Shown: positions 18,250-50,062 of the stretch, piece by piece
Numbering within the stretch: the stretch's first letter is position 1
Layout: each line of letters begins with the position of its first letter
NCBI RefSeq assembly: GCF_009914755.1
Contig: NC_060933.1
DNA length: 64,000 nucleotides
Reading direction: 5' to 3' (one strand)
Source: the human T2T-CHM13v2.0 reference genome, Homo sapiens
The notes under the pieces: model-generated
Databases searched by the model: none
What the model saw: the letters and a program-made list of their open reading frames with translations, nothing else
Told to the model about the DNA's origin: nothing
Made by a program: the position numbers and the translations under genes

Positions 18250-20780
18250 GAATAGAATCAATCCGAATGTAATGGAATGGAATGGAAAGGAATGGAATAG
18301 AATGGAATGGAATGGAATGCAATGGAATGGAATCAACCCGAGTGCAATGGAATGGAGAGGAATGGAATGGAATGGAATGGAAACTACCCGAATGGAATGG
18401 AATGTAATGGAGTGTAAGGGAATTGAATAGAATCAATCCGAATGTAATGGAATGGAATGGAACGGAATGGAATGGAATGGAATGGAATGGAATGGAATGC
18501 AATGGAATGGAATCAACCCGAGTGCAATCGAATGGAATCGAATGGAATGGAATGCAATGGAATGGATTAAACTTGAATGGAATGGAAAGAATGGAATCAA
18601 CACGAGTGGAATGGCATGGATTGGAATGGAATGGAATGGAATCAACCTGAGTACAGGGGAATGGAATGGAATGGAATGCAATGGAATGGAATCATCCGAA
18701 ATGGAATGGAAAGGAATGGAATGGAATGGAATGGAATGGAATGGAATGGAATGGAATGGAATCAACTCGATTGCAATCGAATGGAATGGAATGGAATTAA
18801 CCCGAATAGAATGGAATGGAATGGAATGGAACGGAACGGAATGGAATGGAATGGAATGGAATGGAATGGAACGGAACGGAATGGAATGGAATGGAATGGA
18901 ATGGAATCAACGCGAGTGCAGGGGAATGCAATGGAATGGAATGCAATGGAATGGAAACTTCTGGAATGGAATGGAATGGAATGGAATGGAATGAAATGCA
19001 ATGGATTCAACTCGATTGCAATGGAATGGAATAGAATGGAATGGAATGGAATGGAATGGAATTATTCCGAATAGAATGGAATGGAATGGAATGGAACGGA
19101 ATGGAACGGAATGGAATGGAATGGAATGGAATGGAATGGAATGGAATGGAATGGAATGGAATAAACCCGAGTGCAATGGAATGGAGTGGAATGGAATGGA
19201 ATGGAATGGAACAACCCGAATGGAATGGAATGTAATGGAGAGTAAGGGAGTTGAATAGAATCAATCCGAATGTAATGGAATGGAATGGAACGGAATGAAA
19301 TGGAATGGAATGGAATGGAATGGAATGGAATGGAATGGAATGGAATGGAATGCAATGGAATGGATTCAACTTGAATGGAATGGAAAGAATGGAATCAACA
19401 CGAGTGGAATAACATGGATTCGAATGGAATGGAATGGAATCAACCCGAGTACAGGGGAATGGAATGGAATGGAATGGAATGCAATGGAATGGAATCATCC
19501 GTAATGGAATGGAAAGGAAAGGAATGGAATGGAATGGAATGGAATGGAATGGAATCAACTCGATTGCAATCGAATGGAATGGAATGGAATTAACCCGAAT
19601 AGAATGGAATGGAATGGAATGGAATGGAATGGAACGGAACGGAATGGAATGGAATGGAATGGAATGGAATGGAACGGAAAGGAAGGGAATGGAATGGAAT
19701 AGAATGCAATGGAATGGAATCAACGCGAGTGCAGGGGAATGGAATGGAATGGAATGCAATGGAATGGAATCTTCCGGAATGGAATGGAATGGAATGGAAT
19801 GGAATGGAATGGAATGGAATGGAATCAACCCGAGTGCAATGAAATGGAGTGGAATGGAACTGAATGGAATGGAACAACCCGAATGGAATGGAATGTAATG
19901 GAGAGTAAGGGAGTTGAATAGAATCAATCCGAATGTAATGGAATGGAATGGAACGGAATGGAATTTAATGGAATGGAATGGAATGCAATGGAATGGAATC
20001 AACCCGAGTGCAATGGAATGGAGAGGAATGGAATGGAATGGAATGGAAACTACCCGAATGGAATGGAATGTAATGGAGTGTAAGGGAATTGAATAGAATC
20101 AATCCGAATGTAATGGAATGGAATGGAACGGAATGGAATGGAATGGAATGGAATGGAATGGAATGGAATGCAATGGAATGGAATCAACCCGACTGCAATC
20201 GAATGGAATCGAATGGAATGGAATGCAATGGAATGGATTAAACTTGAATGGAATGGAAAGAATGGAATCAACACGAGTGGAATGGCATGGATTGGAATGG
20301 AATGGAATGGAATCAACCTGAGTACAGGGGAATGGAATGGAATGGAATGCAATGGAATGGAATCATCCGAAATGGAATGGAAAGGAATGGAATGGAATGG
20401 AATGGAATGGAATGGAATGGAATGGAATGGAATGGAATCAAATCGATTGCAATCGAATGGAATGGAATGGAATTAACCCGAATAGAATGGAATGGAATGG
20501 AATGGAACGGAACGGAATGGAATTGAATGGAATGGAATGGAATGGAACGGAACGGAATGGAATGGAATGGAATGGAATGGAATGGAATCAACGCGAGTGC
20601 AGGGGAATGCAATGGAAAGGAATGCAATGGAATGGAAACTTCTGGAATGGAATGGAATGGAATGGAATGGAATGAAATGCAATGGATTCAACTCGATTGC
20701 AATGGAATGGAATAGAATGGAATGGAATGGAATGGAATGGAATTATTCCGAATAGAATGGAATGGAATGGAATGGAACGG
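18250..20780 (+). repeat. Direct duplication, ~18250-19100 vs ~19915-20780 (offset ~1.67 kb)
   Basis: Seen: shared rare variants GGATTAAACTTGAA (~18565/20235), GGAAACTTCTGG (18953/20634) and ATTATTCCGAAT (~19061/20742). Confidence 0.75.
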
Positions 20781-23700
20781 AATGGAACGGAATGGAATGG
20801 AATGGAATGGAATGGAATGGTATGGAATGGAATGGAATGGAATGGAATGGTACCGATTAGAATGGAATGGAACGAATTGTAATGGAATGGAATTGAATTG
20901 AATGGAATGGAATGGAATGGAATGGAATCAACGCGAGTGCAGGGGAATGTAATGGAACGGAATGCAATGGAATGGAATCATCCGGAATGGAATGGAATGG
21001 AATGGAATGGAATAGAATGGAATGGAATCAACCCGAGTGCAATGGAATGGAGTGGAATGGAATGGAATGGAATGGAATGGAACAACCCGAATGGAATGGA
21101 ATGTAATGGAGAGTAAGGGAGTTGAATAGAATCAATCCGAATGTAATGGAATGGAATGCAACAGAATGGAATGGAATGGAATGGAATGGAATGCAATGGA
21201 ATTGAATCAACCCGAGTACAATGGAATGGAATGGAATGGAATGGAATGGAATGGAATGGAATGGAATGGAATGATGCGGAATAGAATGGAATGGAACGAA
21301 ATGGAATGGAATGGAATGGAATGGAATGGAATGGAATGGAATCGTTCCGAGTGGAATAGGAGGGAATGTATTCGAGTGGAATGGAAAGGAATGGTATCAA
21401 CTAGAGTGGAATGGAATGGAAGGGAATGGAATGGAAACTAATAGAATGGAATCAACCCGAGTGGAATGGAATGGAAAGGACTGGAATGGAATGGAATGGA
21501 ATGGAATCAACTCGATTGTAATGGAATGGAATGGAATGCAATGGAATGGAATGGAATGGAATTAACCTGAATACAATGGAATGGAATGGAATGGAATGGA
21601 ATGGAATGGAATGGAATCAACTCGATTGCAATCGAATGGAATGGAATGGAATTAACCCGAATAGAATGGAATGGAATGGAATGGAACGGAACGGAACGGA
21701 ATGGAATGGATTGGAATGGAATGGAATGGAATGGAATGGAACGGAAAGGAATGGAATGGAATGGAATGGAATGGAATGGAATGGAATCAAAGCGAGTGCA
21801 GGGGAATGGAATGGAATGGAATGCAATGGAATGGAATCTTCCGGAATGGAATGGAATGGAATGGAATGGAATGGAATGGAATGGAATGGAATGGAATAAA
21901 CCCGAGTGCAATGGAATGGAGTGGAATGGAATGGAATGGAATGGAACAACCCGAATGGAATGGAATGTAATGGAGAGTAAGGGAGTTGAATAGAATCAAT
22001 CCGAATGTAATGGAATGGAATGGAACGGAATGGAATTGAATGGAATGGAATGGAATGCAATGGAATGGAATCAACCCGAGTGCAATGGAATGGAGAGGAA
22101 TGGAATGGAATGGAATGGAAACTACCCGAATGGAATGGAATGTAATGGATTGTAAGGGAATTGAATAGAATCAATCCGAATGTAATGCAATGGAATGGAA
22201 CGGAATGGAATGGAATGGAATGGAATGGAATGGAATGGAATGCAATGGAATGGAATCAACCCGAGTGCAATCGAATGGAATCGAATGGAATGGAATGCAA
22301 TGGAATGGATTCAACTTGAATGGAATGGAAAGAATGGAATCAACACGAGTGGAATGGCATGGATTCGAATGGAATGGAATGGAATCAACCCGAGTACAGG
22401 GGAATGGAATGGAATGGAATGGAATGCAATGGAATGGAATCATCCGTAATGGAATGGAAAGGAAAGGAATGGAATGGAATGGAATGGAATGGAATGGAAT
22501 CAACTCGATTGCAATCGAATGGAATGGAATGGAATTAACCCGAATAGAATGGAATGGAATGGAATGGAATGGAACGGAATGGAATGGAATGGAATGGAAT
22601 GGAATGGAACGGAAAGGAAGGGAATGGAATGGAATAGAATGCAATGGAATGGAATCAACTCGAGTGCAGGGGAATGGAATGGAATGGAATGCAATGGAAT
22701 GGAATCTTCCGGAATGGAATGGAATGGAATGGAATGGAATGGAATGGAATGGAATGGAATTGAATGGAATCAACCCGAGTGCAATGAAATGGAGTGGAAT
22801 GGAACTGAATGGAATGGAACAACCCGAATGGAATGGAATGTAATGGAGAGTAAGGGAGTTGAATAGAATCAATCCGAATGTAATGGAATGGAATGGAACG
22901 GAATGGAATTGAATGGAATGGAATGGAATGCAATGGAATGGAATCAACCCGAGTGCAATGGAATGGAGAGGAATGGAATGGAATGGAATGGAAACTACCC
23001 GAATGGAATGGAATGTAATGGAGTGTAAGGGAATTGAATAGAATCAATCCGAATGTAATGGAATGGAATGGAACGGAATGGAATGGAATGGAATGGAATG
23101 GAATGGAATGGAATGCAATGGAATGGAATCAACCCGAGTGCAATCGAATGGAATCGAATGGAATGGAATGCAATGGAATGGATTCAACTTGAATGGAATG
23201 GAAAGAATGGAATCAACACGAGTGGAATGGCATGGATTGGAATGGAATGGAATGGAATCAACCTGAGTACAGGGGAATGGAATGGAATGGAATGCAATGG
23301 AATGCAATCATCCGAAATGGAATGGAAAGGAATGGAATGGAATGGAATGGAATGGAATGGAATGGAATGGAATGGAATCAACTCGATTGCAATCGAATGG
23401 AATGGAATGGAATTAACCCGAATAGAATGGAATGGAATGGAATGGAACGGAACGGAATGGAATTGAATGGAATGCAATGGAATGGAACGGAACGGAATGG
23501 AATGGAATGGAATGGAATGGAATGGAATCAACGCGAGTGCAGGGGAATGGAATGGAATGGAATGCAATGGAATGGAATCTTCTGGAATGGAATGGAATGG
23601 AATGGAATGGAATGGAATGAAATGCAATGCATTCAACTCGATTGCAATGGAATGGAATAGAATGGAATGGAATGGAATGGAATGGAATTAATCCGAATAG

Positions 23701-24380
23701 AATGGAATGGAATGGAATGGAACGGAATGGAATGGAATGGAATGGAATGGAATGGAATGGAATGGTATGGAATGGAATGGAATGGAATGGAATGGAATGG
23801 TACGGATTAGAATGGAATGGAACGAATTGTAATGGAATGGAATTGAATTGAATGGAATGGAATGGAATGGAATGGAATCAACGCGAGTGCAGGGGAATGT
23901 AATGGAACGGAATGCAATGGAATGGAATCATCCGGAATGGAATGGAATGGAATGGAATGGAATAGAATGGAATGGAATCAACCCGAGTGCAATGGAATGG
24001 AGTGGAATGGAATGGAATGGAATGGAATGGAACAACCCGAATGGAATGGAATGTAATGGAGAGTAAGGGAGTTGAATACAATCAATCCGAATGTAATGGA
24101 ATGGAATGCAACAGAATGGAATGGAATGGAATGGAATGGAATGCAATGGAATTGAATCAACCCGAGTACAATGGAATGAAATGGAATGGAATGGAATGGA
24201 ATGGAATGGAACGGAATGGAATGATACGGAATAGAATGGAATGGAACGAAATGGAATGGAATGGAATGGAATGGAATGGAATGGAATGGAATGGAATGGA
24301 ATGGAATCGTTCCGAGTGGAATAGGAGGGAATGTATTCGAGTGGAATGGAAAGGAATGGAATCAACCAGAGTGGAATGGA
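19340..24380 (+). repeat. Direct duplication, ~19340-21410 vs ~22290-24380 (offset ~2.95 kb)
   Basis: Seen: GGAACTGAATGG at 19856/22801, GATTAGAATGG at ~20856/23806, AATTGAATTGAA at ~20891/23841. ORF pairs 19375/22320 and 20912/23862 are near-identical. Confidence 0.8.
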
Positions 24381-25880
24381 AGGGAATGGAATGGAATGGA
24401 ATGGAATGGAATGGAATGCAATGGAATGGAATCAACCCGAGTGCAATCGAATGGAATCAAATGGAATGGAATGCAATGGAATGGATTCAACTTGAATGGA
24501 AAGGAAAGAATGGAATCAACACGAGTGGAATGGCATGGATTGGAATGGAATGGAATGGAATCAACCCGAGTACAGGGGAATGGAATGGAATGGAATGCAA
24601 TGGAATGGAATCATCAGTAATGGAATGGAAAGGAATGGAAAGGACTGGAATGGAATGGAATGGAATGGAATGGAATCAACTCGATTGCAATCGAATGGAA
24701 TGGAATGGAATTAACCCGAATAGAATGGAATGGAATGGAATGGAACGGAACGCAATGGAATGGAATGGAACGGAAAGGAATGGAATGGAATGCATTGGAA
24801 CGGAATGGAATGGAATGGAATCAAGGCGAGTGCAGGGGAATGGAATGGAATCGAATGGAATGGAAAGGAATGGAATGGAATCAACCCGAGTGCAGGTAAA
24901 CGTAATGGAACAGAATGCAACGGAATGGAATCATCCGGAATGGCATGGAATGGAATGGAATGGAATCAACCCGAGTGCAATGGAATGGAGTGGAATGGAA
25001 AGGAATGGAATGGAACAACCCGAATGGAATGGAATGTAATGGAGAGTAAGGGAGTTGAAAAGAATCAATCCGAATGTAATGGAATGGAATGGAACGGAAT
25101 TGAATGGAATGGAATGGAATGGAATGCAATGGAATGGAATCAACCCGAGTACAATGGAATGGAAAGGAATGGAATGTAATGGAATGGAATGGAATGGAAT
25201 GCAATGGAATGGAATCTTCCGGAATTGAATGAAATGGAATGGAATGGAATAGAATGGAATGCAATGGATTCAACTCGATTGCAATGGAATGGAAAAGAAT
25301 GGAATGGAATGGAATGGAATGGAATGGAATGGAATTAAACCGAATAGAATGGAATGGAATGGAATGGAACGGAACAGAACGGAACGGAACGGAACGGAGT
25401 GGAATGGAATGGAATGGAATTGTATGGAATGGAATGGAATGGTACGGAATAGAATGGAATGGAAAGAATTGGAATGGAATGGAATCGAATGGAATGGAAT
25501 GGAATGGAATGGAATCAACCCGAGTGCAGGGGAATGTAATGGAACGGAATGCAATGGAATGGAATCATCCGGAATGGAATGGAATGGAATGGAATGGAAT
25601 GGAATGGAATGGAATGGAATCAACCCGAGTGCAATGGAATGGAGAGGAATGGAATGGAATGGAATGGAAACTACCCGAATGGAATGGAATGTAATGGAGT
25701 GTAAGGGAATTGAATAGAATCAATCCGAATGGAATGGAATGGAATGGAACGGAATGTAATGGAATGGAATGGAATGGAATCAACCCGAGTGCAGGGGAAT
25801 GGAATGGAATGGAATGCAATGGAATGGAATCATCTGGAATGGAATGGAATGGAATGCAATGGAATGGAATGGAATGGAAT

Positions 25881-26270
25881 CAACCCGAGTGCAATGGAAT
25901 GGAGTGAAATGGAATGGAATGGAATGGAGACAACCAGAATGGATTGGAATATAATGGAGTGTAAGGGAATTGAATAGAATCAATCTGAATGTAATGAAAT
26001 GGAATGGAACGGAACGGAACGGAATGGAATGGAATGGAATGGAATGGAATGGAATGGAATGGAATGCAATGGAATGGAATCAACCCGAGTGCAATGGAAT
26101 GGAGTGAAATTGAATGGAATGGAATGGAGACAACCAGAATGGATTGGAATATAATGGAGTGTAAGGGAATTGAATAGAATCAATCTGAATGTAATGAAAT
26201 GGAATGGAACGGAATGGAATGGAATGGAATGGAATGGAATGCCATGGAATGGAATCAACCCGAGTGCAAT
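25881..26270 (+). repeat. Tandem duplication, 200-bp offset
   Basis: Seen: CAACCCGAGTGCAATGGAATGGAGTGAAAT...GGAGACAACCAGAAT...CAATCTGAATGTAATGAAAT starts at both 25881 and 26081. Confidence 0.85.
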
Positions 26271-28413
26271 AGAATGGAATCGAATGGAATGGAATGTAAT
26301 GGAATGGATTCAACTTGAATGGAATGGAAAGAATGGAATCAACACGAGTGGAATGGCATGGATTTGAATGGAATGGAATGGAATCAACCCGAGTATAGGG
26401 GAATGGAATGGAATGGAATGCAATGGAATGGAAACATCCGTAATGGAATGGAATGGAATGGAATGGAATGGAATGGAATGGAATGGAATGGAATGCAATG
26501 GAATGGAATCAACCCGAGTGCAATGGAATGGAGAGGAATGGAATGGAATGGAATGGAAACTACCCGAATGGAATGGAATGTAATGGAGTGTAAAGGAATT
26601 GAATAGAACCAATCCGAATGTAATGGAATGGAATGGAACGGAATGGAATGGAATGCAATGGAATGGAATGGAATGGATTGCAATGGAATTTAATCAACCC
26701 GAGTGCAATCGAATGGAATCGAATGGAATGGAATGCAATGGAATGGATTCAACTTGAATGGAATGGAAAGAATGGAATCAACATGAGTGGAATGGCATGG
26801 ATTGGAATAGGAATGGAATGGAATCAACCCGAGTACAGGGGAATGGAATTGAATGGAATGCAATGGAATGGAATCATCCGTAATGGAATGGAAAGGAATG
26901 GAATGGAATGGAATGGAATGGAATGGAATGTTAGGGAATGGAATCAACTCGATTGCAATCGAATGGAATGGAATGGAATTAACCCGAATAGAATGGAATG
27001 GAATGGAATGGAACGGAACGGAATGGAATGGAATGGAATGGAATGGAATGGAACGGAACGGAATGGAATGGAATGGAATGGAATGGAATGGAATGGAATG
27101 GAATCAACGCGAGTGCAGGGGAATGGAATGGAATGGAATGCAATGGAATGGAATCTTCCGGATTGGAATGGAGTGGAATGGAATGGAATGGAATGAAATG
27201 CAATGGATTCAACTCGATTGCAATGGAATGGAATAGAATGGAATTGAATGGAATGGAATGGAATTAATTCGAATAGAATGGAATGGAATGGAATGGAACG
27301 GAATGGAACGGAATGGAATGGAATGGAATGGAATGGTATGGAATGGAATGGAATGGTACGGAATAGAATGGAATGGAACGAATTGTAATGGAATGGAATT
27401 GAATGGAATGGAATGGAATAAACGCGAGTGCAGGGGAATGTAATGGAACGGAATGCAATGGAATGGAATCATCCGGAATGGAATGGAATGGAATGGAATG
27501 GAATGGAATGGAATGGAATGGAATGGAATCAACCCGAGTGCAATGGAATGGAGTGGAATGGAATGGAATGGAATGGAACAACCCGAATGGAATGGAATGT
27601 AATGGAGAGTAAGGGAGTTGAATAGAATCAATCCGAATGTAATGGAATGGAATGCAACGGAATGGAATGGAATAGAATGGAATGGAATGCAATGGAATTG
27701 AATCAACCCGAGTACAATGGAATGGAATGGAATGGAATAGAATGGAATGGAATGGAATGGAATGATACGGAATAGAATGGAATGGAACGAAATGGAATGG
27801 AATGGAATGGAATGGAATGGAATGGAATGGTTCCGAGTGGAATAGGAGGGAATGTATTCGAGTGGAATGGAAAGGAATGGAATCAACCAGAGTGGAATGG
27901 AAGGGAATGGAATGGAATGGAAACTAATAGAATGGAATCAACCCGAGTGGAATGGAATGGAAAGGACTGGAATGGAATGGAATGGAATGGAATCAACTCG
28001 ATTGTAATGGAATGGAATGGAATGGAATGGAATGGAATGGAATTAACCCGAATACAATGGAATGGAATGGAATGGAACGGAATGGAGTGGAATGGAATGG
28101 AATCAACCCGAGTGCAGGGGAATGGAATGGAATGGAATGCAATGGAATGCAATCATCCGGAATGGAATGGAATGGAGTGGAATGCAAAGCAATGGAATCA
28201 ACTCGATTGCAATGGAATGGAATGGAATGGAAAGGAATACATTGGAATCAACCCGAGTGGAATGGAATGGAATGGACTGGAATGGAGTGGAATGGAATGG
28301 AATGGACTGGAATGGAATGGAATGGAATCAACTCGATTGGAATGGAATGGAATGGAATGGAATGGAATGGAATGGAATGGAATTAACCCGAATAGAATGG
28401 AATGGAATGGAAT

Positions 28414-28443
28414 GGAACGGAACGGAACGGAACGGAACGGAAC
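28414..28443 (+). repeat. (GGAAC)6 variant pentamer run
   Basis: Seen: six tandem GGAAC just downstream of a TAACCCGAATAG module. Similar (GGAAC)5 runs lie at 5220-5244 and 14823-14847. Confidence 0.85.
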
Positions 28444-29683
28444 GGAATGGAATGGAATGGAATGGAATGGAATGGAACGGAACGGAACGGAATGGAATGG
28501 AAAGGAATGGAATGGAAAGGAATCAACGTGAGTGCAGGGGAATGGAATGGAATGGAATGAAATGGAATGGAATCTTCCGGAATGGAATGGAATGGAATGG
28601 ATTAGAATGGAATGGAATGGAATGGAATGGAATCAACCCGAGTACAGGGGAATGGAATGGAATGTAATGCAATGGAATGGAATCATCCGTAATGGAATGT
28701 AAAGGAATGGAATGGAATGGAATGGAATGGAATGGAATGGAATGCAATGGATTCAACTCGATTGCAATGAAATGGAATAGAATGGAATGGAATGGAATGG
28801 AATGGAATGGAATGGAATTAACCCGAATAGAATGGAATGGAATGGTATGGAACGGAACGGAACGGAACGGAACCGAATGGAATGGAATGGAATGGAATGG
28901 AATGGAATGGAATGGAATTGTATGGAATGGAATGGAATGGTATAGAATAGAATGGAATGGAAAGAATTGGAATGGAATGGAATCGAATGGAATGGAATCG
29001 AATGGAATGGAATGGAATGGAATGGAACCAACCCGAGTGCCATGGAATGGATTGGAATGGAATGGAATGGAATGGAACAACCCGAATGGAATGGAATGTA
29101 ATGGAGAGTAAGGGAGTTGAATAGAATCAATCCGAATGTAATGGAATGGAATGGAACGGAATGGAATGGAATGGACTGCAATGGAATGGAATCAACCCGA
29201 GTACAATGGAATGGAATGGAATGGAATGGAATGGAATGGAATGGAATGGAATGGAATGGAATGGAATCAACCCGAGTGCAATGGAATAGAGAGGAAAGGA
29301 ATGGAATGGAATGGAAACTACCCGAATGGAATGGAATGTAATGAAGTGTAAGGGAATTGAATAGAATCAATCCGAATGGAATGGAATGTAATGGAACGGA
29401 AAGTAATGTAATGGACTGGAATGGAATCAACCCGAGTGCAGGGGAATGGAATGGAATGGAATGCAATGGAATGGAATCATCCGGAATGGAATGGAATGGA
29501 ATGGAATGGAATCAACCCGAGTGCAAAGGAATGGAGTGAAATGGAATGGAATGGAATGGAAACAACCAGAATGGATTGGAATATAATGGAGTGTAAGGGA
29601 ATTGAATAGAATCAATCTGAATGTAATGAAATGGAATGGAACGGAAAGGAATGGAATGGAATGGAATGGAATGGAATGGAATG

Positions 29684-29728
29684 GAATGCAATGGAATGGA
29701 ATCAACCCGAGTGCATTCCATTGCATTC
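29684..29728. other. Strand-inversion breakpoint with 15-bp perfect inverted repeat and 15-nt loop
   Basis: Seen: GAATGCAATGGAATG (29684-29698), then GAATCAACCCGAGTG (29699-29713), then CATTCCATTGCATTC (29714-29728). The palindromic TGCA at 29712-29715 can be read as part of either arm. Confidence 0.93.
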
Positions 29729-32700
29729 TGGTTGTTTCCATTCCATTCCATTCCATTTCAGTCCATTCCATTGCACTCGGGTTGATTCCATTCCATTCCA
29801 TTCCATTGCATTCCATTCCATTCCATTCCGGATGATTCCATTCCATTGCATTCCATTCCATTCCATTCCCCTGCACTCGGGTTGATTCCATTCCATTCCA
29901 TTACATAACATTCCGTTCCATTCCATTCCATTCCTTACGGATTGATTCTCTTCAATTCCCTTACACTCCATTCCATTCCATTCCATTCGGGTAGTTTCCA
30001 TTCCATTCCATTCCATTCCTTTCCATTCCATTGCACTCGGGTTGATTCCATTCCATTCCATTCCATTCCATTCCATCCCATTACATTACATTACATTCCG
30101 TTCCATTGTACTCGGGTTGATTCCATTCCATTGCATTCCATTCCATTCCATTCCATTCCATTCCGTTCCATTCCATTACATTCGGATTGATTCTATTGAA
30201 CTCCCTTACTCTCCATTACATTCCATTCCATTCGGGTTGTTCTATTCCATTCCATTCCGTTCCACTCCATTCCATTGCACGCGGGTTGATTCCATTCCAT
30301 TCCATTCCATTCCATTCCATTCCAGTCCATTCCATTCCGGATGATTCCATTCCATTGCATTCCGTTCCATTACATTCCCCTGCACTCGGGTTGATTCCAT
30401 TCCATTCCATTCCATTCCATTCCAATTCTTTCCATTCCATTCTATTCCGTACCATGCCATTCCATTCCATACAATTCCATTCCATTCCATTCCACTCCGT
30501 TCCGTTCCGTTCCGTTCCGTTCGGTTCCATTCCATTCCATTCCATTCTATTCGGTTTAATTCCATTCCATTCCATTCCATTCCATTCTATTCTATTCCAT
30601 AGCAATCGAGTTGAATCCATTGCATTCCATTCCATTCCATTCCATTCCATTCAATTCCGGAAGATTCCATTCCATTGCATTCCATTCCATTCCATTCCAT
30701 TCCATTCCATTCCATTCCATTCCATTCCATTGTACTCGGGTTGATTCCATTCCATTGCATTCCTTTCAATTCCATTCCATTCCATTCCGTTCCATTCCAT
30801 TCCATTACATTCGGATTGATTCTTTTCAACTCCCTTACTCTCCATTACATTCCATTCCATTCGGGTTGTTCCATTCCATTCCATTCCATTCCACTCCATT
30901 CCATTGCACTCGGGTTGATTCCATTCCATTCCATTCCATTCCATTCCGGATAATTCCATTCCATTGCATTCCGTTCCATTACATTCCCCTGCACTCGGGT
31001 TGATTCCATTCCATTCCATTCCATTCCATTCCATTCCATTCCATTCCCCTGCACTCGCGTTGATTACATTCCATTCCATTCCATTCCATTCCTTTCCATT
31101 CCAGTCCTTTCCATTCCATTCCGTTAGGGTTGATTCCATTCTATTAGTTTCCATTCCATTCCATTCCCTTCCATTCTACTCTGGATGATTCCATTCCTTT
31201 CAATTCCACTCGAATACATTCCCTCCTATTCCACTCGGAACGATTCCATTCCATTCCATTCCATTCCATTCCATTCCATTCCATTCCATTCCATTCCATT
31301 TCGTTCCATTCCATTCTATTCCGTATCATTCCATTCCATTCCATTCCATTCCATTCCATTCCATTCCATTCGTGTTGATTCCATTTCTTTCCATTCCATT
31401 CGGTTTGAAGGCATTCCAATCCATTCCATTCCCTTCCATTCCATTCCATTCCATTCCATTCCATTGTACTCGGGTTGATTCCATTCCATTGCATTCCATT
31501 CCATTCCATTCCATTCCATTCCATTCCGTTGCATTTTATTCCATTACATTCAGATTGATTCTATTCAACTCCCTTACTCTCCATTACATTCCATTCCATT
31601 CGGGTTGTTCCATTCCATTCCATTCCATTCCACTCCATTCCATTGCACTCGGGTTGATTCCATTCCATTCCATTCCATTCCATTCCATTCCATTCCATTC
31701 CATTCCGGATGATTCCATTCCATTGCATTCCGTTCCATTACATTCCCCTGCACTCGCGTTGATTCCATTCCATTCCATTCCATTCTATTCCATTCCATTA
31801 CAATTCGTTCCATTCCATTCTATTCCGTTCCATTCCATTCCATTCCATTCCATTCCATTCCGTTCCGTTCCATTCCATTGCATTCCATTCTATTCGCGTT
31901 AATTCCATTCCATTCCATTCGATTGCAATCGAGTTGATTCCATTCCATTCCATTCCATTCCATTCCATTCCATTCCATTCCTTTCCATTCCGTTACGGAT
32001 GATTCCATTCCATTGCATTCCATTCCATTCCATTCCCCTGTACTCGGGTTGATTCCATTCCATTCAAGTTGAATCCATTCCATTGCATTCCATTCCATTC
32101 GATTCCATTCGATTGCACTCGGGTTGATTCCATTCCATTGCATTCCATTCCATTCCATTCAATTCCATTCCGTTCCATTCCATTCCATTACATTCGGATT
32201 GATTCTATTCAACTCCCTTACTCTCCATTACATTCCATTCCATTCGCGTTGTTCCATTCCATTCCATTCCATTCCACTCCATTCCATTGCACTCGGGTTT
32301 ATTCCATTCCATTCCATTCCATTCCATTCCATTCCATTCCATTCCATTCTATTCCGGAAGATTCCATTCCATTGCGTTCCATTCCATTCCATTCCCCTGC
32401 ACTCGCGTTGATTCCATTCCATTCCATTCCATTCCATTCCATTCCATTCCGTTCCGTTCCATTCCATTCCATTCCATTCCATTCCATTCCGTTTCGTTCC
32501 GTTCCGTTCCATTCCATTCTATTCCATTCTATTCGGGTTAATTCCATTCCATTCCATTCGACTGTAATGGAGTTGATTCCATTCCATTCCATTCCTTTCC
32601 ATTCCATTCCATTCCATTCCATTCTTTTCCATTCCTTTACGGATGATTCCATTCCATTGCATTCCATTCCATTCCATTCCACTGTACTCGGGTTGATTCC

Positions 32701-35700
32701 ATTCCATTCCATTCGAATCCACGCCATTCCACTCGTGTTGATTCCATTCTTTCCATTCCATTCAAGTTGAATCCATTCCATTGCATTCCATTCCATTCCA
32801 TTCCCCTGCAGTCAGGTTGATTCCATTCCATTCCATTCCATTCCATTGCATTCCGTTCCGTTCCGTTGCGTTCCATTCCATTCCATTCCATTCCATTCTA
32901 TTCGGGTTAATTCCATTCCATTGCATTCCATTCCATTCCATTCCATTCCAATCGAGTTGATTCCATTCCATTCCATTCCATTCCATTCCACTCCATTCCA
33001 GTCTTTTCCATTCCATTCCACTCGGGTTGATTCCAATGTATTCCTTTCCATTCCATTCCATTCCATTGCAATCGAGTTGATTCCATTGCTTTGCATGCCA
33101 TTCCATTCCATTCCATTCCGGATGATTCCATTCCATTGCATTCCATTCCATTCCATTCCCCTGCACTCGGGTTGATTCCATTCCTTTCCACTCCATTCCG
33201 TTCCATTCCATTCCATTCCATTGTATTCGGGTTAATTCCATTCCATTCCATTCCATTCCATTCCATTCCATCACAATCGAGTTGGTTCCATTCCATTCCA
33301 TTCCATTCCATTCCATTCCATTCCATTCCGGATGATTCCATTCCATTACATTCCGTTCCATTACATTCCCCTGCACTCGGGTTGATTCCATTCCATTCCA
33401 TTCCATTCCATTCGATTCCATTCCATTCCAATTCTTTCCATTCCATTCTATTCCGTACCATTCCATTCCATTCCATACCATTCCATTCCACTCCATTCCA
33501 TTCCATTCCGTTCCGTTCCGTTCCGTTCCGTTCCATTCCATTCCATTCCATTTTATTCGGGTTAATTCCATTCCATTCCATTCCATTCCATTCCATTCCA
33601 TTCTATTCCATTCCATTGCAATCGAGTTGAATCCATTGCATTCCATTCCATTCCATTCCGGAAGATTCCAGTCCATTGCATTCCATTCCATTCCAGTTCC
33701 CTGCACTCGCGTTGATTCCATTCCATTCCATTCCATTCCATTCCATTCCATTCCGTTCCGTTCCATTCCATTCCATTCCATTCCGTTCCGTTCCCTTCCG
33801 TTCCATTCCATTCCATTCTATTCCGGTTAATTCCATTCCATTCCATTCGATGGCAATCCAGTTGATTCCATTCCATTCCATTCCATTCCATTCCTTTCCA
33901 TTCCATTACGGATGATTCCATTCCATTACATTACATTCCATTCCATTCCCCTGTACTCGGGTTGATTCCATTCCATTCCATTCCATTCCATTCTATTCCA
34001 TTCCATTCCATTCCATTCCGGAAGATTCCATTCCATTGCATTCCATTCCATTGCATTCCATTCCATTCCATTCCATTCCATTCCGTTCCATTCCATTCCA
34101 TTACATTCGGATTGATTCTATTCAATTCCCTTACACTCCATTATATTCCATTCCATTCGGGTAGTTTCCATTCCATTCCATTCCATTCCTCTCCATTCCA
34201 TTGCACTCGGGTTGATTCCATTCCATTGCATTGCATTCCAATCCATTCCCCTGTACTCGGGTTGATTCCATTCCATTCCATTCCAATCCATGCCATTCCA
34301 CTCGTGTTGATTCCATTCTTTCCATTCCATTCAAGTTGAATCCATTCCATTGCATTCCATTCCATTCCATTCCCCTGCAGTCGGGTTGATTCCATTGCAT
34401 TCCATTCCATTCCAATCCATTCCATTCCACTCCGTTCCGTTCCATTCCATTCTATTCCATTCCATTATATTCGGGTTAATTCCATTCCATTCCATTCCAT
34501 TCCAATCGAGTTGATTCCATTCCATTCCATTCCATTCCATTCCACTCCATTCTAGTCCTTTCCATTCCATTCCACTCGGGTTGATTCCAATGTATTCCTT
34601 TCCATTCCATTCCATTCCATTGCAATCGAGTTGATTCCATTGCTTTGCATTCCACTCCATTCCATTCCATTCCGGATGATTCCATTCCATTGCATTCCAT
34701 TCCATTCCATTCCCCTGCACTCGGGTTGATTCCATTCCATTCCACTCCATTCCGTTCCATTCCATTCCATTGCATTGTATTCGGGTTAATTCCATTCCAT
34801 TCCATTCCATTCCATTCCATTCCATCACAATCGGGTTGGTTCCATTCCATTCCATTCCATTCCGTTCCATTCCATTCCGGATGATTCCATTCCATTACAT
34901 TCCGTTCCATTACATTCCCCTGCACTCGGGTTGATTCCATTCCATTCCATTCCTTTCCATTCCATTCGATTCCATTCCATTCCAATTCTTTCCATTCCAT
35001 TCTCTTCCGTACCATTCCATTCCATTCCATACCATTCCATTCCATTCCATTCCATTCCATTCCTTTCCGTTCCATTCCATTCCATTCCATTCTATTCGGG
35101 TTAATTCCATTCCATTCCATTCCATTCCATTCTATTCCATTCCATTGCAATCGAGTTGAATCCATTGCATTCCATTCCATTCCATTCCATTCCATTCTGG
35201 AAGATTCCATTCCATTGCATTCCATTCCATTCCATTCCCCTGCACTCGCGTTGATTCCATTCCATTCCATTCCATTCCATTCCGTTCCGTTCCGTTCCGT
35301 TCCATTCCATTCCATTCCTTTTATTCGGTTTAATTCCACTCCATTCCATTCCATTCCATTCCATTCCAATCAAGTTGATTCCATTCCATTCCATTCCATT
35401 CCATTCCATTCCATTCCACTCCATTCCAGTCCTTTCCATTCCATTCCACTCGGGTTGATTCCAATGTATTCCTTTCCATTCCATTCCATTCCATTGCAAT
35501 CGAGTTGATTCCATTGCTTTGCATTCCATTCCATTCCATTCCATTCCGGATGATTCCATTCCATTGCATTGCATTCCATTCCATTCCCCTGCACTCGGGT
35601 TGATTCCATTCCATTCCACTCCATTCCGTTCCATTCCATTCCATTCCATTGTATTCGGGTTAATTCCATTCCATTCCATTCCATTCCATTCCATTCCATT

Positions 35701-38489
35701 CCATTGCATTACAATCGAGTTTATTACATTCCATTCCATTCCATTCCAGTCCTTTCCATTCCATTCCACTCGGGTTGATTCCATTCTATTAGTTTCCATT
35801 CCATTCCATTCCCTTCCATTCCACTCTGGTTGATTCCATTCCTTTCCATTCCACTCGAATACATTCCCTCCTATTCCACTCGGAACGATTCCATTCCATT
35901 CCATTCCATTCCATTCCATTCCATTCCATTCCATTCCATTCCATTCCATTTCGTTCCATTCCATTCCATTCCGTATCATTCCATTCCATTCCATTCCATT
36001 CCATTCCATTCCATTCCATTCCATTCCATTCCATTGTACTCGGGTTGATTCAATTCCATTGCGTTCCATTCCATTCCATTCCATTCCATTCCGTTCCATT
36101 CCATTCCATTACATTCGGATTGATTCTATTCAACACCCTTACTCTCCATTACATTCCATTCCATTCGGGTTGTTCCATTCCATTCCATTACATTCCACTC
36201 CATTCCATTGCACTCGGGTTGATTCCGTTCCATTCCATTCCATTCCATTCCATTCCATTCCATTCCATTCCGGATGATTCCATTCCATTGCATTCCGTTC
36301 CATTACATTCCCCTGGTCTCGCGTTGATTCCATTCCATTCCATTCAATTCCATTCCATTACAATTCGTTCCATTCCATTCTATTCCGTACCATTCCATTC
36401 CATTCCATACCATTCCATTCCATTCCTTTCCATTCCGTTCCATTCCGTTCCATTCCATTCCATTCCATTCTATTCGAATTAATTTCATTGCATTCCATTC
36501 CATTCCATTCTATTCCATCCCATTGCAATCGAGTTGAATCCATTGCATTTCATTCCATTCCATTCCATTCCATTCCATTCCGGAAGATTCCATTCCATTG
36601 CATTCCATTCAATTCCATTCCCCTGCACTCGCGTTGATTCCATTCCATTCCATTCCATTCCATTGCATTCCGTTCCGTTCCATTCCATTCCATTCCATTC
36701 CATTCCGTTCTGTTCCATTTCATTCCATTCCATTCTATTCGGGTTAATTCCATTCCATTCCATTCGATTGCAATCGAGTTGATTCCATTCCATTCCATTC
36801 CATTCCATTCCATTCCATTCCATTCCATTCCTTTCCATTCCATTATGGATGATTCCATTCCATTGCATTCCATTCCATTCCATTCCCCTGTACTGCGGTT
36901 GATTCCATTCCATTCCATTCCAATCCATGCCATTCCACTCGTGTTGATTCCATTCTTTCCATTCCATTCAAGTTGAATCCATTCCATTGCATTCCATTCC
37001 TTTCGATTTCATTCTATTGCACTCGGGTTGATTCAATTCCATTGCATTCCATTCCATTCCATTCCATTCCATTCCGTGGCATTCCATTCCATTACATTCG
37101 GATTGATTCTATTCAACTCCCTTACTCTCCATTACATTCCATTCCATTCGGGTTGTTCCATTCCATTCCATTCCATTCCACTCCATTCCATTGCACTCGG
37201 GTTGATTCCATTCCATTCCATTCCATTCCATTCCATTCCATTCCGGATGATTCCATTCCATTGCATTCCGTTCCATTACATTCCCCTGCACTCGCGTTGA
37301 TTCCATTCCATTCCATTCCATTCCATTCAATTCCATTCCATTACAATTCGTTCCATTCCATTCTTTTCCGTACCATTCCATTCCATTCCATACCATTCCA
37401 TTCCATTCCATTCCATTCCATTCAATTCCATTCCATTACAATTCGTTCCATTCCATTCTATTCCGTACCATTCCATTCCATTCCATACCATTCCGTTCCA
37501 TTCCATTCCATTTCATTCCGTTCCATTCCATTCCATTCCATTCCATTCCATTCCATTCTATTTCATTCCATTGCAATCGAGTTGAATCCATTTCATTCCA
37601 TTCCATTCCATTCCATTCTGGAAGATTCCATTCCATTGCATTCCACTCCATTCCATTCCCCTGCACTCGCGTTGATTCCATTCCATTCCATTCCATTCCA
37701 TCCATTCCGTTCCGTTCCGTTCCATTCCATTCCATTCCATTCCATTCCATTCCATTCCGTTCCATTCCATTCCATTCCATTCCATTCTATTCGGGTTAAT
37801 TCCATTCCATTCCATTCGATTGCAATCGAGTTGATTCCATTCCATTCCATTCCATTCCATTCCATTCCATTCCTTTCCATTCCATTACGGATGATTCCAT
37901 TCCATTGCATTCCATTCCATTCCATTCCCCTGTACTCGGGTTGATTCCATTCCATTCCATTCCAATCCATGCCATTCCACTCGTGTTGATTCCATACTTT
38001 CCATTCCATTCAAGTTGAATCCATTCCATTGCATTCCATTCCATTCGATTCCATTCGATTGCACTCGGGTTGATTCCATTCCATTGCATTCCATTCCATT
38101 CCATTCCATTCCATTCCATTCCATTCCGTTCCATTCCATTCCATTACATTCGGATTGATTCTATTCAATTCCCTTACACTCCATTACATTCCATTCCATT
38201 CGGGTAGTTTCCATTCCATTCCATTCCATTCCATTCCATTCCATTCCATTCCATTCCATTTCGTTCCATTCCATTCTATTCCGTATCATTCCATTCCATT
38301 CCATTCCATTCCATTCCATTCCATTCCATTCCATTCCATTGTACTCAGGTTGATTCAATTCCATTGCATTCCATTCCATTCCATTCCATTCCATTCCATT
38401 CCGTTCTATTCCATTCCATTACATTCGGATTGATTCTATTCAACTCCCTTACTCTCCATTACATTCCATTCCATTCGGGTTGTTCCATT

Positions 38490-38670
38490 CCATTCCATTC
38501 CATTCCACTCCATTCCATTGCACTCGGGTTGATTCCATTCCATTCCATTCCATTCCATTCCATTCCACTCCATTCCTTTGCACTCGGGTTGATTCCATAC
38601 CATTCCATTCCCTTCCATTCCATTCCACTCCATTCCTTTGCACTCGGGTTGATTCCATTCCATTCCATTC
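38490..38670 (-). repeat. Three tandem copies of a 60-bp unit
   Basis: Seen: CACTCGGGTTGATT at 38521, 38581 and 38641, each preceded by CCACTCCATTCC(A/T)TTG. Confidence 0.85.
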
Positions 38671-41600
38671 CATTCCATTCCATTCCATTCCATTCCGGAT
38701 GATTCCATTCCATTGCATTCCGTTCCATTACATTCCCCTGCACTCGCATTGATTCCATTCCATTCCATTCAATTCTGTTCCATTACAATTCGTTCCATTC
38801 CATTCTATTCCGTACCATTCTATTCCTTTCCATACCATTCCATTCCATTCCATTCCATTCCATTCCGTTCCATTCCGTTCCATTCCATTCCATTCCATTC
38901 TACTCGGATTAATTTCATTCCATTCCATTCCATTCCATTCCATTCCATTCTATTCCATTCCATTGCAATCGAGTTGAATCCATTGCATTCCATTCCATTC
39001 CATTCCATTCCATTCCATTCCGGAAGATTCCATTCCATTGCATTCCATTCCATTCCATTCCCCTGCACTCGCGTTGATTCCATTCCATTCCATTCCATTC
39101 CATTTCATTCCATTCCATTCCGTTCCGTTCCATTCCATTCCATTCCATTCCATTCTATTCGGGTTAATTCCATTCCATTCCATTCGATTGCAATCGAGTT
39201 GATTCCATTCCATTCCATTCCATTCCATTCCTTTCCATTCCATTACGGATGATTCCATTCCATTGCATTCCATTCCTTTCCATTCCCCTGTACTCGGGTT
39301 GATTCCATTGCATTCCATTCCAATCCATGCCATTCCACTCGTGTTGATTCCATTCTTTCCATTCCATTCAAGTTGAATCCATTCCATTGCATTCCATTCC
39401 ATTCCATTCCTCTGCAGTCGGGTTGATTCCATTCCCTTCCATTCCATTCCATTGCATTCCATTCCAATCGAATTGATTCCATTCCATTCCATTCCATTCC
39501 ATTCCATTCCACTCCATTCCAGTCTTTTCCATTCCATTCCACTCGGGTTGATTCCAATGTATTCCTTTCCATTCCATTCCATTCCATTGCATTCCGTTCC
39601 ATTACATTCCCCTGCACTCGCTTTGATTCCATTCCATTCCATTCCATTCCATTCAATTCCATTCCATTACAATTCGTTCCATTCCATTCTATTCCGTACC
39701 ATTCCATTCCATTCCATTCCAATCGAGTTGATTCCTTTCCATTCCATTCCATTCCATTCCACTCCATTCCAGTCCTTTCCATTCCATTCCACTCGGGGTG
39801 ATTCCAATGTATTCCTTTCCATTCCATTCCATTCCATTGCAATCGAGTTGATTCCATTGCTTTGCATTCCATTCCATTCCATTCCATTCCGGATGATTCC
39901 ATTCCATTGCATTCCATTCCATTCCATTCCCCTGCACTCGGGTTGATTCCATTCCATTCCACTCCATTCCGTTCCATTCCATTCCATTCCATTGTATTCG
40001 GGTTAATTCCACTCCATTCCATTCCATTCCATTCCATTCCATTCCATTACAATCGAGTTGATTCCATTCCATTCCATTCCATTCCAGTCCTTTCCATTCC
40101 ATTCCACTCGGGTTGATTCCATTCTATTAGTTTCCATTCCATTCCATTCCCTTCCATTCCACTCTGGTTGCTACAATTCCTTTCCATTCCACTCGAATAC
40201 ATTCCCTCCTATTCCACTCGGAACGATTCCATTCCATTCCATTCCATTCCATTCCATTCCATTCCATTCCATTTCGTTCCATTCCATTCTATTCAGTATC
40301 ATTCCATTCCATTCCATTCCATTCCATTCCATTCCATTCCATTCCATTGTACTCGGGTTGATTCAATTCCATTGCATTCCATTCCATTCCATTCCATTCC
40401 ATTCCATTCCATTCCATTCCATTCCATTACAATTCGTTCCATTCCATTCTATTCGGTACCATTCCATTCCATTCCATACCATTCCATTCCATTCCATTCC
40501 ATTCCATTCCGTTCCATTCCGTTCCATTGCATTCCATTCCATTCTATTCGGATTAATTCCATTCCATTCCATTCCATTCCATTCCATTCCATTCCGATCC
40601 ATTCCGTTCTGTTCCATTCCATTCCATTACATTCCATTCAATTCCATTCCATTCTGTTCCGTTCCATTCCATTCCATTCCATTCTATTCGGGTTAATTCC
40701 ATTCCATTCCATTCGATTGCAATCGAGTTGATTCCATTCCATTCCATTGCTTTCCATTCCATTACGGATGATTCCATTCCATTGCATTCCATTCCATTCC
40801 ATTCCCCTGTACTCGGGTTGATTCCATTCCATTCCAATCCAATCCATGCCATTCCACTCGTGTTGATTCCATTCTTTCCATTCCATTCAAGTTGAATCCA
40901 TTCCATTGCATTCCATTCCATTCGATTCCATTCGATTGCACTCGGGTTGATTCCATTCCATTACATTCCATTGCATTCCATTCCATTCCATTCCATTCCG
41001 TTCCATTCCATTCCATTACATTCGGATTGATTCTATTCAATTCCCTTACACTCCATTACATTCCATTCCATTTGGGTAGTTTCCATTCCATTCCATTCCA
41101 TTCCTCTCCATTCCATTGCACTTGGGTTGATTCGATTCCATTGCATTCCATTCCATTCCATTCAATTCCATTCCGTTCCATTCCATTCCATTACATTCGG
41201 ATTGATTCTATTCAACTCCCTTACTCTCCATTACATTCCATTCCATTCGGGTTGTTCTATTCCATTCCATTCCATTCCACTCCATTCCATTGCACTCGGG
41301 TTGATTCCATTCCATTCCATTCCAATCCATGCCATTCCACTCGTGTTGATTCCATTCTTTCCATTCCATTCAAGTTGAATCCATTCCATTGCATTCCATT
41401 GCATTCCATTCCCCTGCAGTCGGGTTGTTTCCATTCCATTCCATTGCATTCCATTCCATTCCATTCCATTCCGTACCGTTCCGTTCCATTCCATTCCATT
41501 CCATTCTATTCGGGTTAATTCCATTTCATTCCATTCCATTCCATTCCATTCCATTACAATTCGTTCCATTCCATTCTATTCCGTACCATTCCATTCCATT

Positions 41601-42059
41601 CCATTCCAATCGAGTTGATTCCTTTCCATTCCATTCCATTCCATTCCACTACATTCCAGTCCTTTCCATTCCATTCCACTCGGGGTGATTCCAATGTATT
41701 CCTTTCCATTCCATTCCATTCCAATGCAATCGAGTTGATTCCATTGCTTTGCATTCCATTCCATTCCATTCCATTCCGGATGATTCCATTCCATTGCATT
41801 CCATTCCATTCCATTCCCCTGCACTCGGGTTGATTCCATTCCATTCCACTCCATTCCGTACCATTCCATTCCATTCCATTCCATTGTGTTCGGGTTAATT
41901 CCATTCCATTCCATTCCATTCCATTCCATTCCATTGCAATCGAGTTGATTCCATTCCATTTCATTCCATTCCATTCCATTACATTCCATTCCAATCGAGT
42001 TGATTCCATTCCATTTCATTCCATTCCATTCCATTCCATTCCATTCCATTCCATTCCAT

Positions 42060-49843: not shown

Positions 49844-50062
49844 ATTCCATTCCATTCCATTCCATTCCATTCCATTCCATTCCATTCCATTTCAATCGAG
49901 TTGATTCCATTCCATTCCATTCCATTCCATTCCATTCCATTCCATTCCATTTCAATCGAGTTGATTCCATTCCATTCCATTCCATTCCATTCCATTCCAT
50001 TCCATTCCATTTCAATCGAGTTGATTCCATTCCATTCCATTCCATTCCATTCCATTCCATTC
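49844..50062 (-). repeat. Three identical tandem copies of a 60-bp unit
   Basis: Seen: the 60-mers starting at 49861, 49921 and 49981 are identical, with TTCAATCGAGTTGA at 49891, 49951 and 50011. Confidence 0.92.

What the first reader, a model, noticed from the sequence alone, without database searches (positions are those of the whole stretch)
29561..29740. Base-resolved strand inversion with a fold-back / template-switch signature
Seen: the array flips orientation once, at CAACCCGAG-TGCA-TTCC. Bases 29714-29728 are the exact reverse complement of 29684-29698 (15-nt loop). From 29724 the right arm reads as the reverse complement of the AACAACCAGAATG module, whose nearest left copy is 29561-29573, leaving a 150-bp asymmetric centre. 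In the six left-arm copies ACAACCAGAATG is followed by GATTGGAATATAA, but the inverted copy is followed by CAATGGAATGCA, so this short stretch is junction-specific. Established: strand inversions within HSat3 arrays are known from T2T assemblies, so the class is not new. Inference: a broken end snapped back, copied ~15 nt locally, then switched template at a GAATG microhomology (MMBIR or polymerase-theta-like).
Basis: partly seen in the sequence, partly recalled or inferred. Interest (0 to 1): 0.85.

Follow-up and report, generated by a model that had tools for sequence, protein, structure and literature searches.

The report
Old, many-times-copied HSat3 inversion scar
The strand flip is real, but it is one of about thirty near-identical copies of a single old inversion junction spread through the chromosome 9 satellite block, so it records how the block grew and not a fresh local repair event.

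Summary
The window flips strand once, at CAACCCGAGTGCA|TTCC. 29714-29728 is the exact reverse complement of 29684-29698. The inverted AACAACCAGAATG module is followed by junction-specific bases.

The 15-nt "stem" is not evidence of snap-back. That 15-mer occurs 123 times in the left arm, and 16.5% of 20,000 simulated random joins give a stem at least as long. Only 8 nt (29716-29723) are unaccounted for.

The junction is not private to this window. Its 34-mer occurs 27 times exactly and 29 times with up to 2 mismatches, plus one variant with a different left arm. All lie on chr9 between 52.9 and 76.4 Mb, in both orientations. All 20 other copies I fetched are true flips sharing about 2 kb (left) and 0.5-2 kb (right) of flank.

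Two further junction families exist: a tail-to-tail one with 85 copies and a head-to-head one with 20. Together the three families give 135 of at least 180 flips.

Best reading: one old non-homologous join with a short filler, later carried along by segmental duplication. How it first formed (fold-back or two-break inversion) stays unresolved. The class is known.

The parts
1..29715 (+). GGAAT-sense arm of the HSat3 array (left arm, called P in the report)
   Evidence: GC skew about +0.6; 3323 GGAAT against 3 ATTCC
29716..64000 (-). Inverted (ATTCC) arm, called Q. The first 18-20 kb is of the same sub-type as the left arm; the rest is another sub-type.
   Evidence: GC skew about -0.6; 3882 ATTCC against 4 GGAAT; 40-mer sharing with the left arm is about 0.5 up to 18 kb and 0.13-0.21 beyond 20 kb
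29561..29573 (+). Left-arm copy of the AACAACCAGAATG module word
   Evidence: present in all 21 aligned junction copies at 135-155 nt from the join, the distance varying with GGAAT copy number
29684..29698 (+). GAATGCAATGGAATG, the proposed snap-back template
   Evidence: Exact reverse complement of 29714-29728, but 123 copies in the left arm
29703..29715 (+). CAACCCGAGTGCA motif; last bases that read as ordinary left arm
   Evidence: ordinary copies continue ATGG
29712..29715 (.). TGCA palindrome at the join; CA (29714-29715) could belong to either arm
   Evidence: comparison with module copies
29716..29723 (.). TTCCATTG, the 8 nt explained by neither arm's ordinary continuation (filler)
   Evidence: identical in all 21 aligned copies
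29724..29736 (-). Inverted AACAACCAGAATG module; first bases that read as ordinary right arm
   Evidence: the 150 nt beyond it match left-type module copies at 148 of 150
29706..29739 (+). Junction word (34-mer) that defines junction family J1
   Evidence: 27 exact genome hits, 17 forward and 10 reverse, all chr9; 29 hits with up to 2 mismatches

Best explanation
The feature is a genuine head-to-head strand-switch junction (family J1) inside the large chromosome 9 HSat3 array. It was made once, by a non-homologous join. A left arm broken just after CAACCCGAGTGCA was joined to an inverted arm broken inside a rare AACAACCAGAATG module. Between them lie 8 nt of filler (TTCCATTG), flanked by 2-4 nt (CA or TGCA) and 5 nt (CATTC) of microhomology. 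That join was then carried passively by the segmental duplications that built the array, up to the multi-megabase duplication of this genome, so it now exists in about 30 copies in both orientations. Shown: the single origin and the amplification. Inferred: the joining chemistry (end joining or template switching with a short, possibly templated, filler). Also inferred: copies changed orientation by recombination between the oppositely oriented arms, which would create no new junction. The junction has no function of its own; it is a scar that marks lineage within the array.
For: Copy number: the 34-mer has 27 exact hits, all chr9 52,936,689-76,390,042, 17 forward and 10 reverse. With up to 2 mismatches there are 29, and there is one variant with the same right arm and TGCA but another left arm (L030). 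True flips: 20 of 20 other copies fetched show skew of about +0.6 then -0.6. Common descent: all 21 aligned copies have the identical join and filler and the same module 135-155 nt to the left. Flank identity to the window is 92-100% for about 2 kb on the left in all 20; on the right the first 500 bp is 97-100% in 16 of 20 and 86-93% in the other four. Core divergence is 0.0% in 8 pairs that lie 8.7 or 10.6 Mb apart, and 1.0-1.7% between the window and 11 of the other copies. The 0.0% pairs fit the 'recent multi-megabase HSat3 duplication' of this genome (PMC9186530, passages seen). Junction specificity: 29 of 31 hits of the 17-mer CATTGCATTCTGGTTGT are J1 copies; one is an ordinary module with a private single-base change; one, on chr1, was not examined. 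Same behaviour in other junctions: J2 has 78 exact and 85 near-exact copies, J3 has 20.
Against: For those 7 the flip is shown only by the 34-mer itself. Flanks differ between copies beyond 0.5-4.5 kb, and five copies (L014, L015, L016, L023, L028) diverge by 5.6-5.7%, two (L012, L021) by 4.1% and one (L025) by 10.6% from the window in the 2-kb core. The history therefore includes exchanges I did not resolve. No reads and no other human or ape genomes could be searched, so age and polymorphism are not measured. The filler could also be ordinary right-arm sequence carrying one or two substitutions.
Confidence: 0.85

Rival explanations
1. A broken end ending in ...GAGTGCA snapped back on itself and copied about 13-15 nt of 29684-29698. 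It then switched at the CATTC/GAATG microhomology to the module 150 bp upstream and copied the left arm backwards, giving a fold-back inverted duplication with a 150-bp spacer.
For: The bases fit exactly. The inverted arm ends in the same rare module type as the one 150 bp left of the join: 6 of 37 left-arm modules and 3 of 40 right-arm modules are of this type. The first 150 nt of the right arm match left-type copies at 147-148 of 150, against 142-143 for the other right-arm copies. The first 18 kb or so of the right arm is of the left-arm sub-type. Human fold-back duplications show spacers, 2-8 bp inverted microhomology and short local insertions (PMC3907307, abstract and passages).
Against: A stem of this length arises in 16.5% of random joins. 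The adjacent left copy is not the closest relative (458 of 500, against 482 of 500 for copies 27-28 kb away). It shares no exclusive variants with the right arm. There is no dominant anti-diagonal of shared 32-mers and no diagonal in the matrix of unique 28-mers. The distal right-arm sub-type is absent from the left arm. The 150-bp spacer is below the 766-70,466 bp range in PMC3907307.
Confidence: 0.2
2. J1 is one end of a classical two-break inversion, and the other end is the tail-to-tail junction J2 (CCATTGCAC|ACGGAATGG). One staggered break inside CAACCCGA/GTGCA/ATGG left GTGCA on both products.
For: J1 keeps ...CCCGAGTGCA. The reverse complement of J2's minus arm starts GTGCAATGG, then has about 35 nt, then the TTCAAC... 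and ...GAGTGGAATGGCATGG elements. That is the order which follows 'module, then CAACCCGAGTGCA' in ordinary units. Only 16 of 91 CGAGTGCA motifs in the left arm are of that class, so I estimate the chance at about 0.4% if breaks fall at random. For 17 of 17 forward J1 copies the next known flip downstream is a J2, 12 of them in the same orientation. The J1-to-J2 arm of 17.8 kb in L009 runs in the same order as the window's 58-kb arm, with gaps.
Against: The second pair of ends does not abut in ordinary order. The inverted arm ends inside a CCAG-type module, whereas J2's plus arm starts about 10 nt after a GAGTGCA motif of another array sub-type (501 ordinary copies). Several unrelated junctions also break in this motif, so a hot spot would inflate the coincidence. 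J2 (85 copies) far outnumbers J1 (30) and also pairs with J3.
Confidence: 0.3
3. There is no filler at all. The arms were joined directly at a CA microhomology, and the 8 nt are ordinary module sequence that later took one or two substitutions before amplification.
For: Against the right-arm module type (...CCAGAATGGAATGGAATGTA; window 42517 and 46561) the junction differs at one base once TGCA is given to the left arm. The same G-to-C change arose independently in an ordinary module (L031). GCAATGG is a very common array variant. Five other head-to-head junctions read here are direct joins without filler.
Against: The flank of the inverted module is of the left type (148 of 150). Its continuation GATTGGAA would need two changes in 8 nt. 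Only 1 of about 1,960 ordinary modules has the variant.
Confidence: 0.1
4. The flip is an assembly artefact.
For: No reads could be inspected here.
Against: There are 29 copies with private substitutions and different GGAAT counts next to an identical join. Strand switches in this array are reported across many assemblies.
Confidence: 0.01
5. The same junction formed many times independently at a sequence-specific hot spot.
For: Breaks of several junction types fall in the CAACCCGAGTGCA motif.
Against: An identical 8-nt filler and kilobases of shared flank are found in all 20 fetched copies.
Confidence: 0.02

Closest known systems
Strand switches (inversion breakpoints) in the chr9 HSat3B5 array of T2T-CHM13
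   Same: Same array and same phenomenon. Preprint 10.1101/2021.07.12.452052, section 7 (read), says the chr9 HSat3B5 array and beta-satellite arrays 'contain over 200 inversion breakpoints'. PMC13684623 (passages) gives about 129 orientation switches per haplotype. 10.64898/2026.07.22.740206 (passages) reports hundreds of switches whose number correlates with array length (r = 0.90).
   Different: Those texts, as far as I read them, count switches and call them stochastic by-products of expansion. I saw no base-resolved junctions and no statement that the switches fall into a few families by descent. Their supplements were not available to me.
Recent multi-megabase HSat3 duplication (9qh+) of CHM13
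   Same: PMC9186530 (passages). It explains the 8 junction pairs with 0.0% core divergence that lie 8.7 or 10.6 Mb apart.
   Different: It accounts for only 10 of the 29 copies. The other copies differ by 0.1-1.7% or more and stem from older duplications.
Fold-back inverted duplications (Hermetz et al. 2014, PMC3907307)
   Same: Head-to-head join, short inverted microhomology, an unduplicated spacer and occasional short local insertions.
   Different: The spacer here would be 150 bp, against 766-70,466 bp. The arms are not demonstrable copies of each other. There is no terminal deletion context.
Template switching at replication forks (ODIRA, PMC10766183; MMBIR and polymerase-theta snap-back synthesis, recalled)
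   Same: Short inverted repeats or microhomology at a strand-switch point; templated filler.
   Different: For PMC10766183 I saw only the search listing; the rest is recalled. The template match here is not above chance.

Membership tests
Intra-array strand switch of chr9 HSat3 | Lies in the GGAAT-derived satellite of chr9 q12 | tested here: met
   Hub coordinates chr9:57.04-57.10 Mb; 3323 GGAAT and 3882 ATTCC in the window. Sub-family B5 is taken from the literature and was not tested with sub-family markers.
Intra-array strand switch of chr9 HSat3 | The satellite continues on both sides in opposite orientation | tested here: met
Junction family propagated by segmental duplication | Identical join and filler in many copies | tested here: met
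   27 exact and 29 near-exact copies; 21 of 21 aligned copies are identical at the join
Junction family propagated by segmental duplication | Homologous flanks beyond the join | tested here: met
   About 2 kb on the left and 0.5-2 kb on the right in 20 of 20 copies; over 10 kb in 1 of 20
Fold-back inverted duplication | The inverted arm is a copy of the adjacent non-inverted arm | tested here: not met
   The nearest copy is not the closest; no exclusive shared variants; no mirror collinearity. Later array turnover could have erased it.
Fold-back inverted duplication | Spacer plus inverted microhomology at its edge | tested here: inconclusive
   150-bp interval and 2-5 nt microhomology are present, but the spacer is shorter than the published range and microhomology is trivial in a pentamer satellite
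Templated insertion (polymerase-theta or MMBIR type) | The insertion matches nearby sequence more than chance allows | tested here: not met
   p = 0.165 in 20,000 random joins; 8 other 17-nt templates in the window
Templated insertion (polymerase-theta or MMBIR type) | The bases at the join are absent from ordinary copies of either arm | tested here: met
   29 of 29 hits of the 24-mer are junction copies; 1 of about 1,960 ordinary modules has the first variant base, as a private change
Two-break inversion with staggered breaks | A reciprocal junction whose ends abut those of J1 in ordinary order | tested here: inconclusive
   The first pair abuts with a 5-nt overlap and the right downstream order; the second pair does not

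The most novel reading that the evidence does not exclude
The 180 or more strand switches of the 9q12 HSat3 block may not be independent inversions. They may be copies of a handful of founding junctions (J1, J2, J3 and a few more), with J1 and J2 being the two ends of one small inversion (about 18 kb) made at a staggered break in the CAACCCGAGTGCA motif. Junction words would then serve as lineage barcodes for reconstructing how the block expanded and for typing 9qh size variants from reads.
Probability: 0.3. Interest if true: 0.55.

Novelty: new member of a known kind. Interest (0 to 1): 0.4.

Why it matters
Strand switches in this array are already on record, so the class is not new. What the tools add is that this junction, and at least two others, are multi-copy by descent. 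Three junction words account for 135 of at least 180 flips. That gives a concrete reason why the number of switches tracks array length in population data: the switches are duplicated along with the array. It also gives short diagnostic words that could be counted in reads to follow the growth and polymorphism of the 9q12 heterochromatin block. It warns against reading repair mechanisms from short stems in pentamer satellites, where inverted matches across any flip are the rule.

Tried and rejected
(1) blastn of the right arm against the left arm timed out. I replaced it with k-mer and Biopython alignments.

(2) Long palindrome. There is no dominant anti-diagonal of shared 32-mers and no diagonal of unique 28-mers. 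Rejected.

(3) L031 (chr9:62260209) as the ordinary precursor of the filler. It differs from two paralogues only by that one base, so it is a private recent change. Rejected.

(4) J3 as a J1 copy with its centre deleted. Its flanks map elsewhere in the arms. Rejected.

(5) A shared TGCA centre among junctions. It is seen only in J1 and its variant L030; J2 reads TGCAC|AC; J3 and four other head-to-head junctions are direct joins with no TGCA.

(6) The hairpin energy of 29675-29740 (-20.3 kcal/mol, z = -6) is not informative, because dinucleotide shuffles destroy the flipped-satellite structure that any flip has.

I used smaller stretches instead.

PMC9233505 is not held.

(9) Literature searches for base-resolved HSat3 junctions or junction families found counts of switches only. 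bioRxiv supplements, which may hold breakpoint tables, could not be read.
Full report
**The observation**

The window is pentamer satellite throughout. GC skew is about +0.6 in every 1-kb bin up to 29 kb and about -0.6 from 30 kb on. GGAAT/ATTCC counts are 3323/3 left of 29715 and 4/3882 right of it, and there is a single change of sign, at about 29.7 kb.

The join reads ...GGAATCAACCCGAGTGCA|TTCCATTGCATTCTGGTTGTTTCC.... Bases 29714-29728 are the exact reverse complement of 29684-29698, with 15 nt between them. AACAACCAGAATG lies at 29561-29573 and its reverse complement at 29724-29736, 150 bp apart. All 6 left-arm copies of ACAACCAGAATG continue GATTGGAATATAA, whereas the inverted copy continues CAATGGAATGCA.

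**Is the stem more than chance?**

It is not.
- GAATGCAATGGAATG occurs 123 times in the left arm and 87 times, reversed, in the right arm.
- The 17-mer that also includes TGCA occurs at 8 other places in the window.
- Across 631 nt around the flip there are 130 inverted-repeat pairs.
- I joined 20,000 random left-arm positions to random right-arm positions. In 16.5% of them an exact inverted match of 15 nt or more started at the join with its template within 45 nt. The figure is 22.9% if the match may start within 3 nt.

Only 29716-29723 (TTCCATTG) is explained by neither arm. It is flanked by TGCA (or CA) on one side and CATTC on the other.

**Are the arms copies of each other?**

No dominant anti-diagonal of shared 32-mers exists. 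A matrix of 28-mers that are unique in both arms shows no diagonal.

The right arm's first 500 nt match the left-arm copies at 1266 and 3062 at 482 of 500, but the adjacent copy at 29562 at 458 of 500. Over 150 nt the figures are 148, 148 and 147, the last with a 15-20 nt gap. The adjacent copy shares no exclusive variants with the right arm.

The first 18 kb or so of the right arm is of the same sub-type as the left arm: about half of its 40-mers are shared. Beyond 20 kb only 13-21% are shared.

**The junction is multi-copy**

- The 34-mer across the join has 27 exact hits in the window's own genome, all on chr9 between 52,936,689 and 76,390,042, 17 forward and 10 reverse.
- With up to 2 mismatches there are 29 hits.
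- The 24-mer of the filler side has 29 hits. Two of these lack the exact 34-mer. L029 has one substitution. L030 has the same right arm and TGCA but a different left arm, and is still a flip.

I fetched 10 kb around 20 other copies.
- All 20 flip from skew of about +0.6 to about -0.6.
- All 21 aligned copies carry the identical join and filler. The left module lies 135-155 nt away, the distance varying only with the number of GGAAT units.
- Identity to the window, in 500-bp bins, is 92-100% for about 2 kb on the left in every copy. On the right the first 500 bp is 97-100% in 16 of the 20 copies and 86-93% in the other four (L012, L021, L025, L026), and high identity runs for 0.5-2 kb. Beyond that, copies diverge in groups.
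- Only the copy at 67.69 Mb is near-identical over the whole 10 kb.

In the 2-kb core, 8 pairs that lie 8.7 or 10.6 Mb apart differ by 0.0%. The window differs from 11 of the other copies by 1.0-1.7%. From the window, one sub-group differs by about 5.6%, two copies by 4.1% and one by 10.6%, which points to exchanged flanks. [quoted passage not shown]

Ordinary copies do not carry the 24-mer: 29 of its 29 hits are junction copies. The shorter 17-mer CATTGCATTCTGGTTGT has 31 hits. These are the 29 junction copies, one on chr1 (not examined) and one ordinary, unflipped module at chr9:62260209. That module differs from each of two paralogues by this one base in 427 aligned, so it is a private recent change and not a precursor.

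Ordinary modules number 207 (...GAATGGAATG) plus 1753 (...GAATGGATTG) genome-wide. The filler is thus specific to the junction. It could still be ordinary module sequence with one substitution (measured against the right-arm type) or two (against the left-arm type, which the flank resembles more).

**Other junctions**

Two J1 copies have a second flip 3.4 kb to their left. This is a tail-to-tail join, CCATTGCAC|ACGGAATGG, here called J2. Its 37-mer has 78 exact hits and 85 with up to 2 mismatches, all on chr9 between 52.3 and 76.4 Mb. One lies 58 kb to the right of the window's join, outside the window.

Between two J2 copies 9.5 kb apart lies a third family, J3, head-to-head: GGAATAAACCC|ATTCCGTTCC. 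It has 20 copies. Its flanks do not map next to J1.

A generic head-to-head pattern found only low-copy further junctions on chr9, at 6 sites plus L030, all direct joins.

Sorting all 141 located flips gives 56 head-to-head and 85 tail-to-tail, with 39 neighbouring pairs of like polarity. At least 180 flips must therefore exist, and the three families supply 135 of them. [quoted passage not shown]

**How the founding join arose**

Three readings remain.

It fits the bases. It also fits the fact that the inverted arm ends in the same rare module type that lies 150 bp left of the join: 6 of 37 left-arm modules and 3 of 40 right-arm modules are of this type. But the stem is not significant, and the arms are not demonstrable copies of each other.

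(b) A two-break inversion with J2 as the reciprocal end.
- J1 keeps ...CCCGAGTGCA. The reverse complement of J2's minus arm begins GTGCAATGG and continues with the TTCAAC... and ...GAGTGGAATGGCATGG elements. These are the elements that follow 'module, then CAACCCGAGTGCA' in ordinary units.
- Only 16 of 91 CGAGTGCA motifs are of that class.
- For 17 of 17 forward J1 copies the next known flip downstream is a J2.
- The 17.8-kb arm of one unit runs in the same order as the window's 58-kb arm, with gaps.
- Against this reading, the other two ends do not abut in ordinary order, and several unrelated junctions also break in this motif.

(c) A direct join followed by point changes.

I put these at about 0.2, 0.3 and 0.1. 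None affects the main conclusion. That copies lie in both orientations is most simply explained by recombination between the oppositely oriented arms, which inverts the join without making a new junction. This is inference and was not tested.

**Comparison and verdict**

The class is known: strand switches in the chr9 HSat3 array. In the sections and passages I read, and in four literature searches, I found counts of switches but no base-resolved junctions and no junction families.

The flagged feature is a real but ordinary member of this class. It is old, has a single origin, and has been amplified about thirty-fold. The mechanistic signature read into it is not distinguishable from chance.

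Noticed in passing
L010 and L019, 3.4 kb left of their J1 copy (chr9:52954492 and 61694269); nearest copy to the window at chr9:57127759, 23.8 kb beyond the window's end: A tail-to-tail junction family, J2 (CCATTGCAC|ACGGAATGG), with 78 exact and 85 near-exact copies on chr9. It is more numerous than the flagged junction.
   Followed up: yes
L034:1236 (chr9:70855035): A second head-to-head family, J3 (GGAATAAACCC|ATTCCGTTCC), with 20 copies. It is a direct join with about 2 nt of microhomology and no filler.
   Followed up: yes
window 29703-29715; L010, L034; chr9:63825077; chr17:21960997: Break points of several unrelated junctions fall inside or within about 10 nt of the CAACCCGAGTGCA-type motif: J1 left, both J2 sides, J3 left, chr9:63825077 and chr17. 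This motif covers only about 4% of the array. It may be a fragile site.
   Followed up: partly
window about 47700-49700: The inverted arm changes sub-type 18-20 kb from the join: sharing of 40-mers with the left arm drops from about 0.5 to 0.13-0.21. In five other copies the next known flip, a J2, lies 17.8-18.0 kb from J1.
   Followed up: partly
window 1-29715 against 29716-64000: The two arms have different dominant long periods: 2945 bp on the left, 2505 and 4034 bp on the right.
   Followed up: no
window 25930 and 26130: Two copies of the ACAACCAGAATG module lie 200 bp apart, a small local duplication inside the left arm.
   Followed up: no
chr9:52.94-53.99 against 61.68-62.76 Mb, and 57.07-60.64 against 67.69-71.29 Mb: The two blocks of the recent large duplication have different offsets, 8.72-8.77 Mb and 10.62-10.65 Mb. 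About 1.9 Mb extra therefore lies between the second copies; it holds three further J1 copies at 64.36-64.99 Mb.
   Followed up: no
L031 (chr9:62260209): An ordinary module carrying a private G-to-C change that recreates the first filler base. It is identical to two paralogues at 426 of 427 positions.
   Followed up: yes
chr1:30794758: A lone hit of the 17-mer CATTGCATTCTGGTTGT outside chr9. It was not examined.
   Followed up: no
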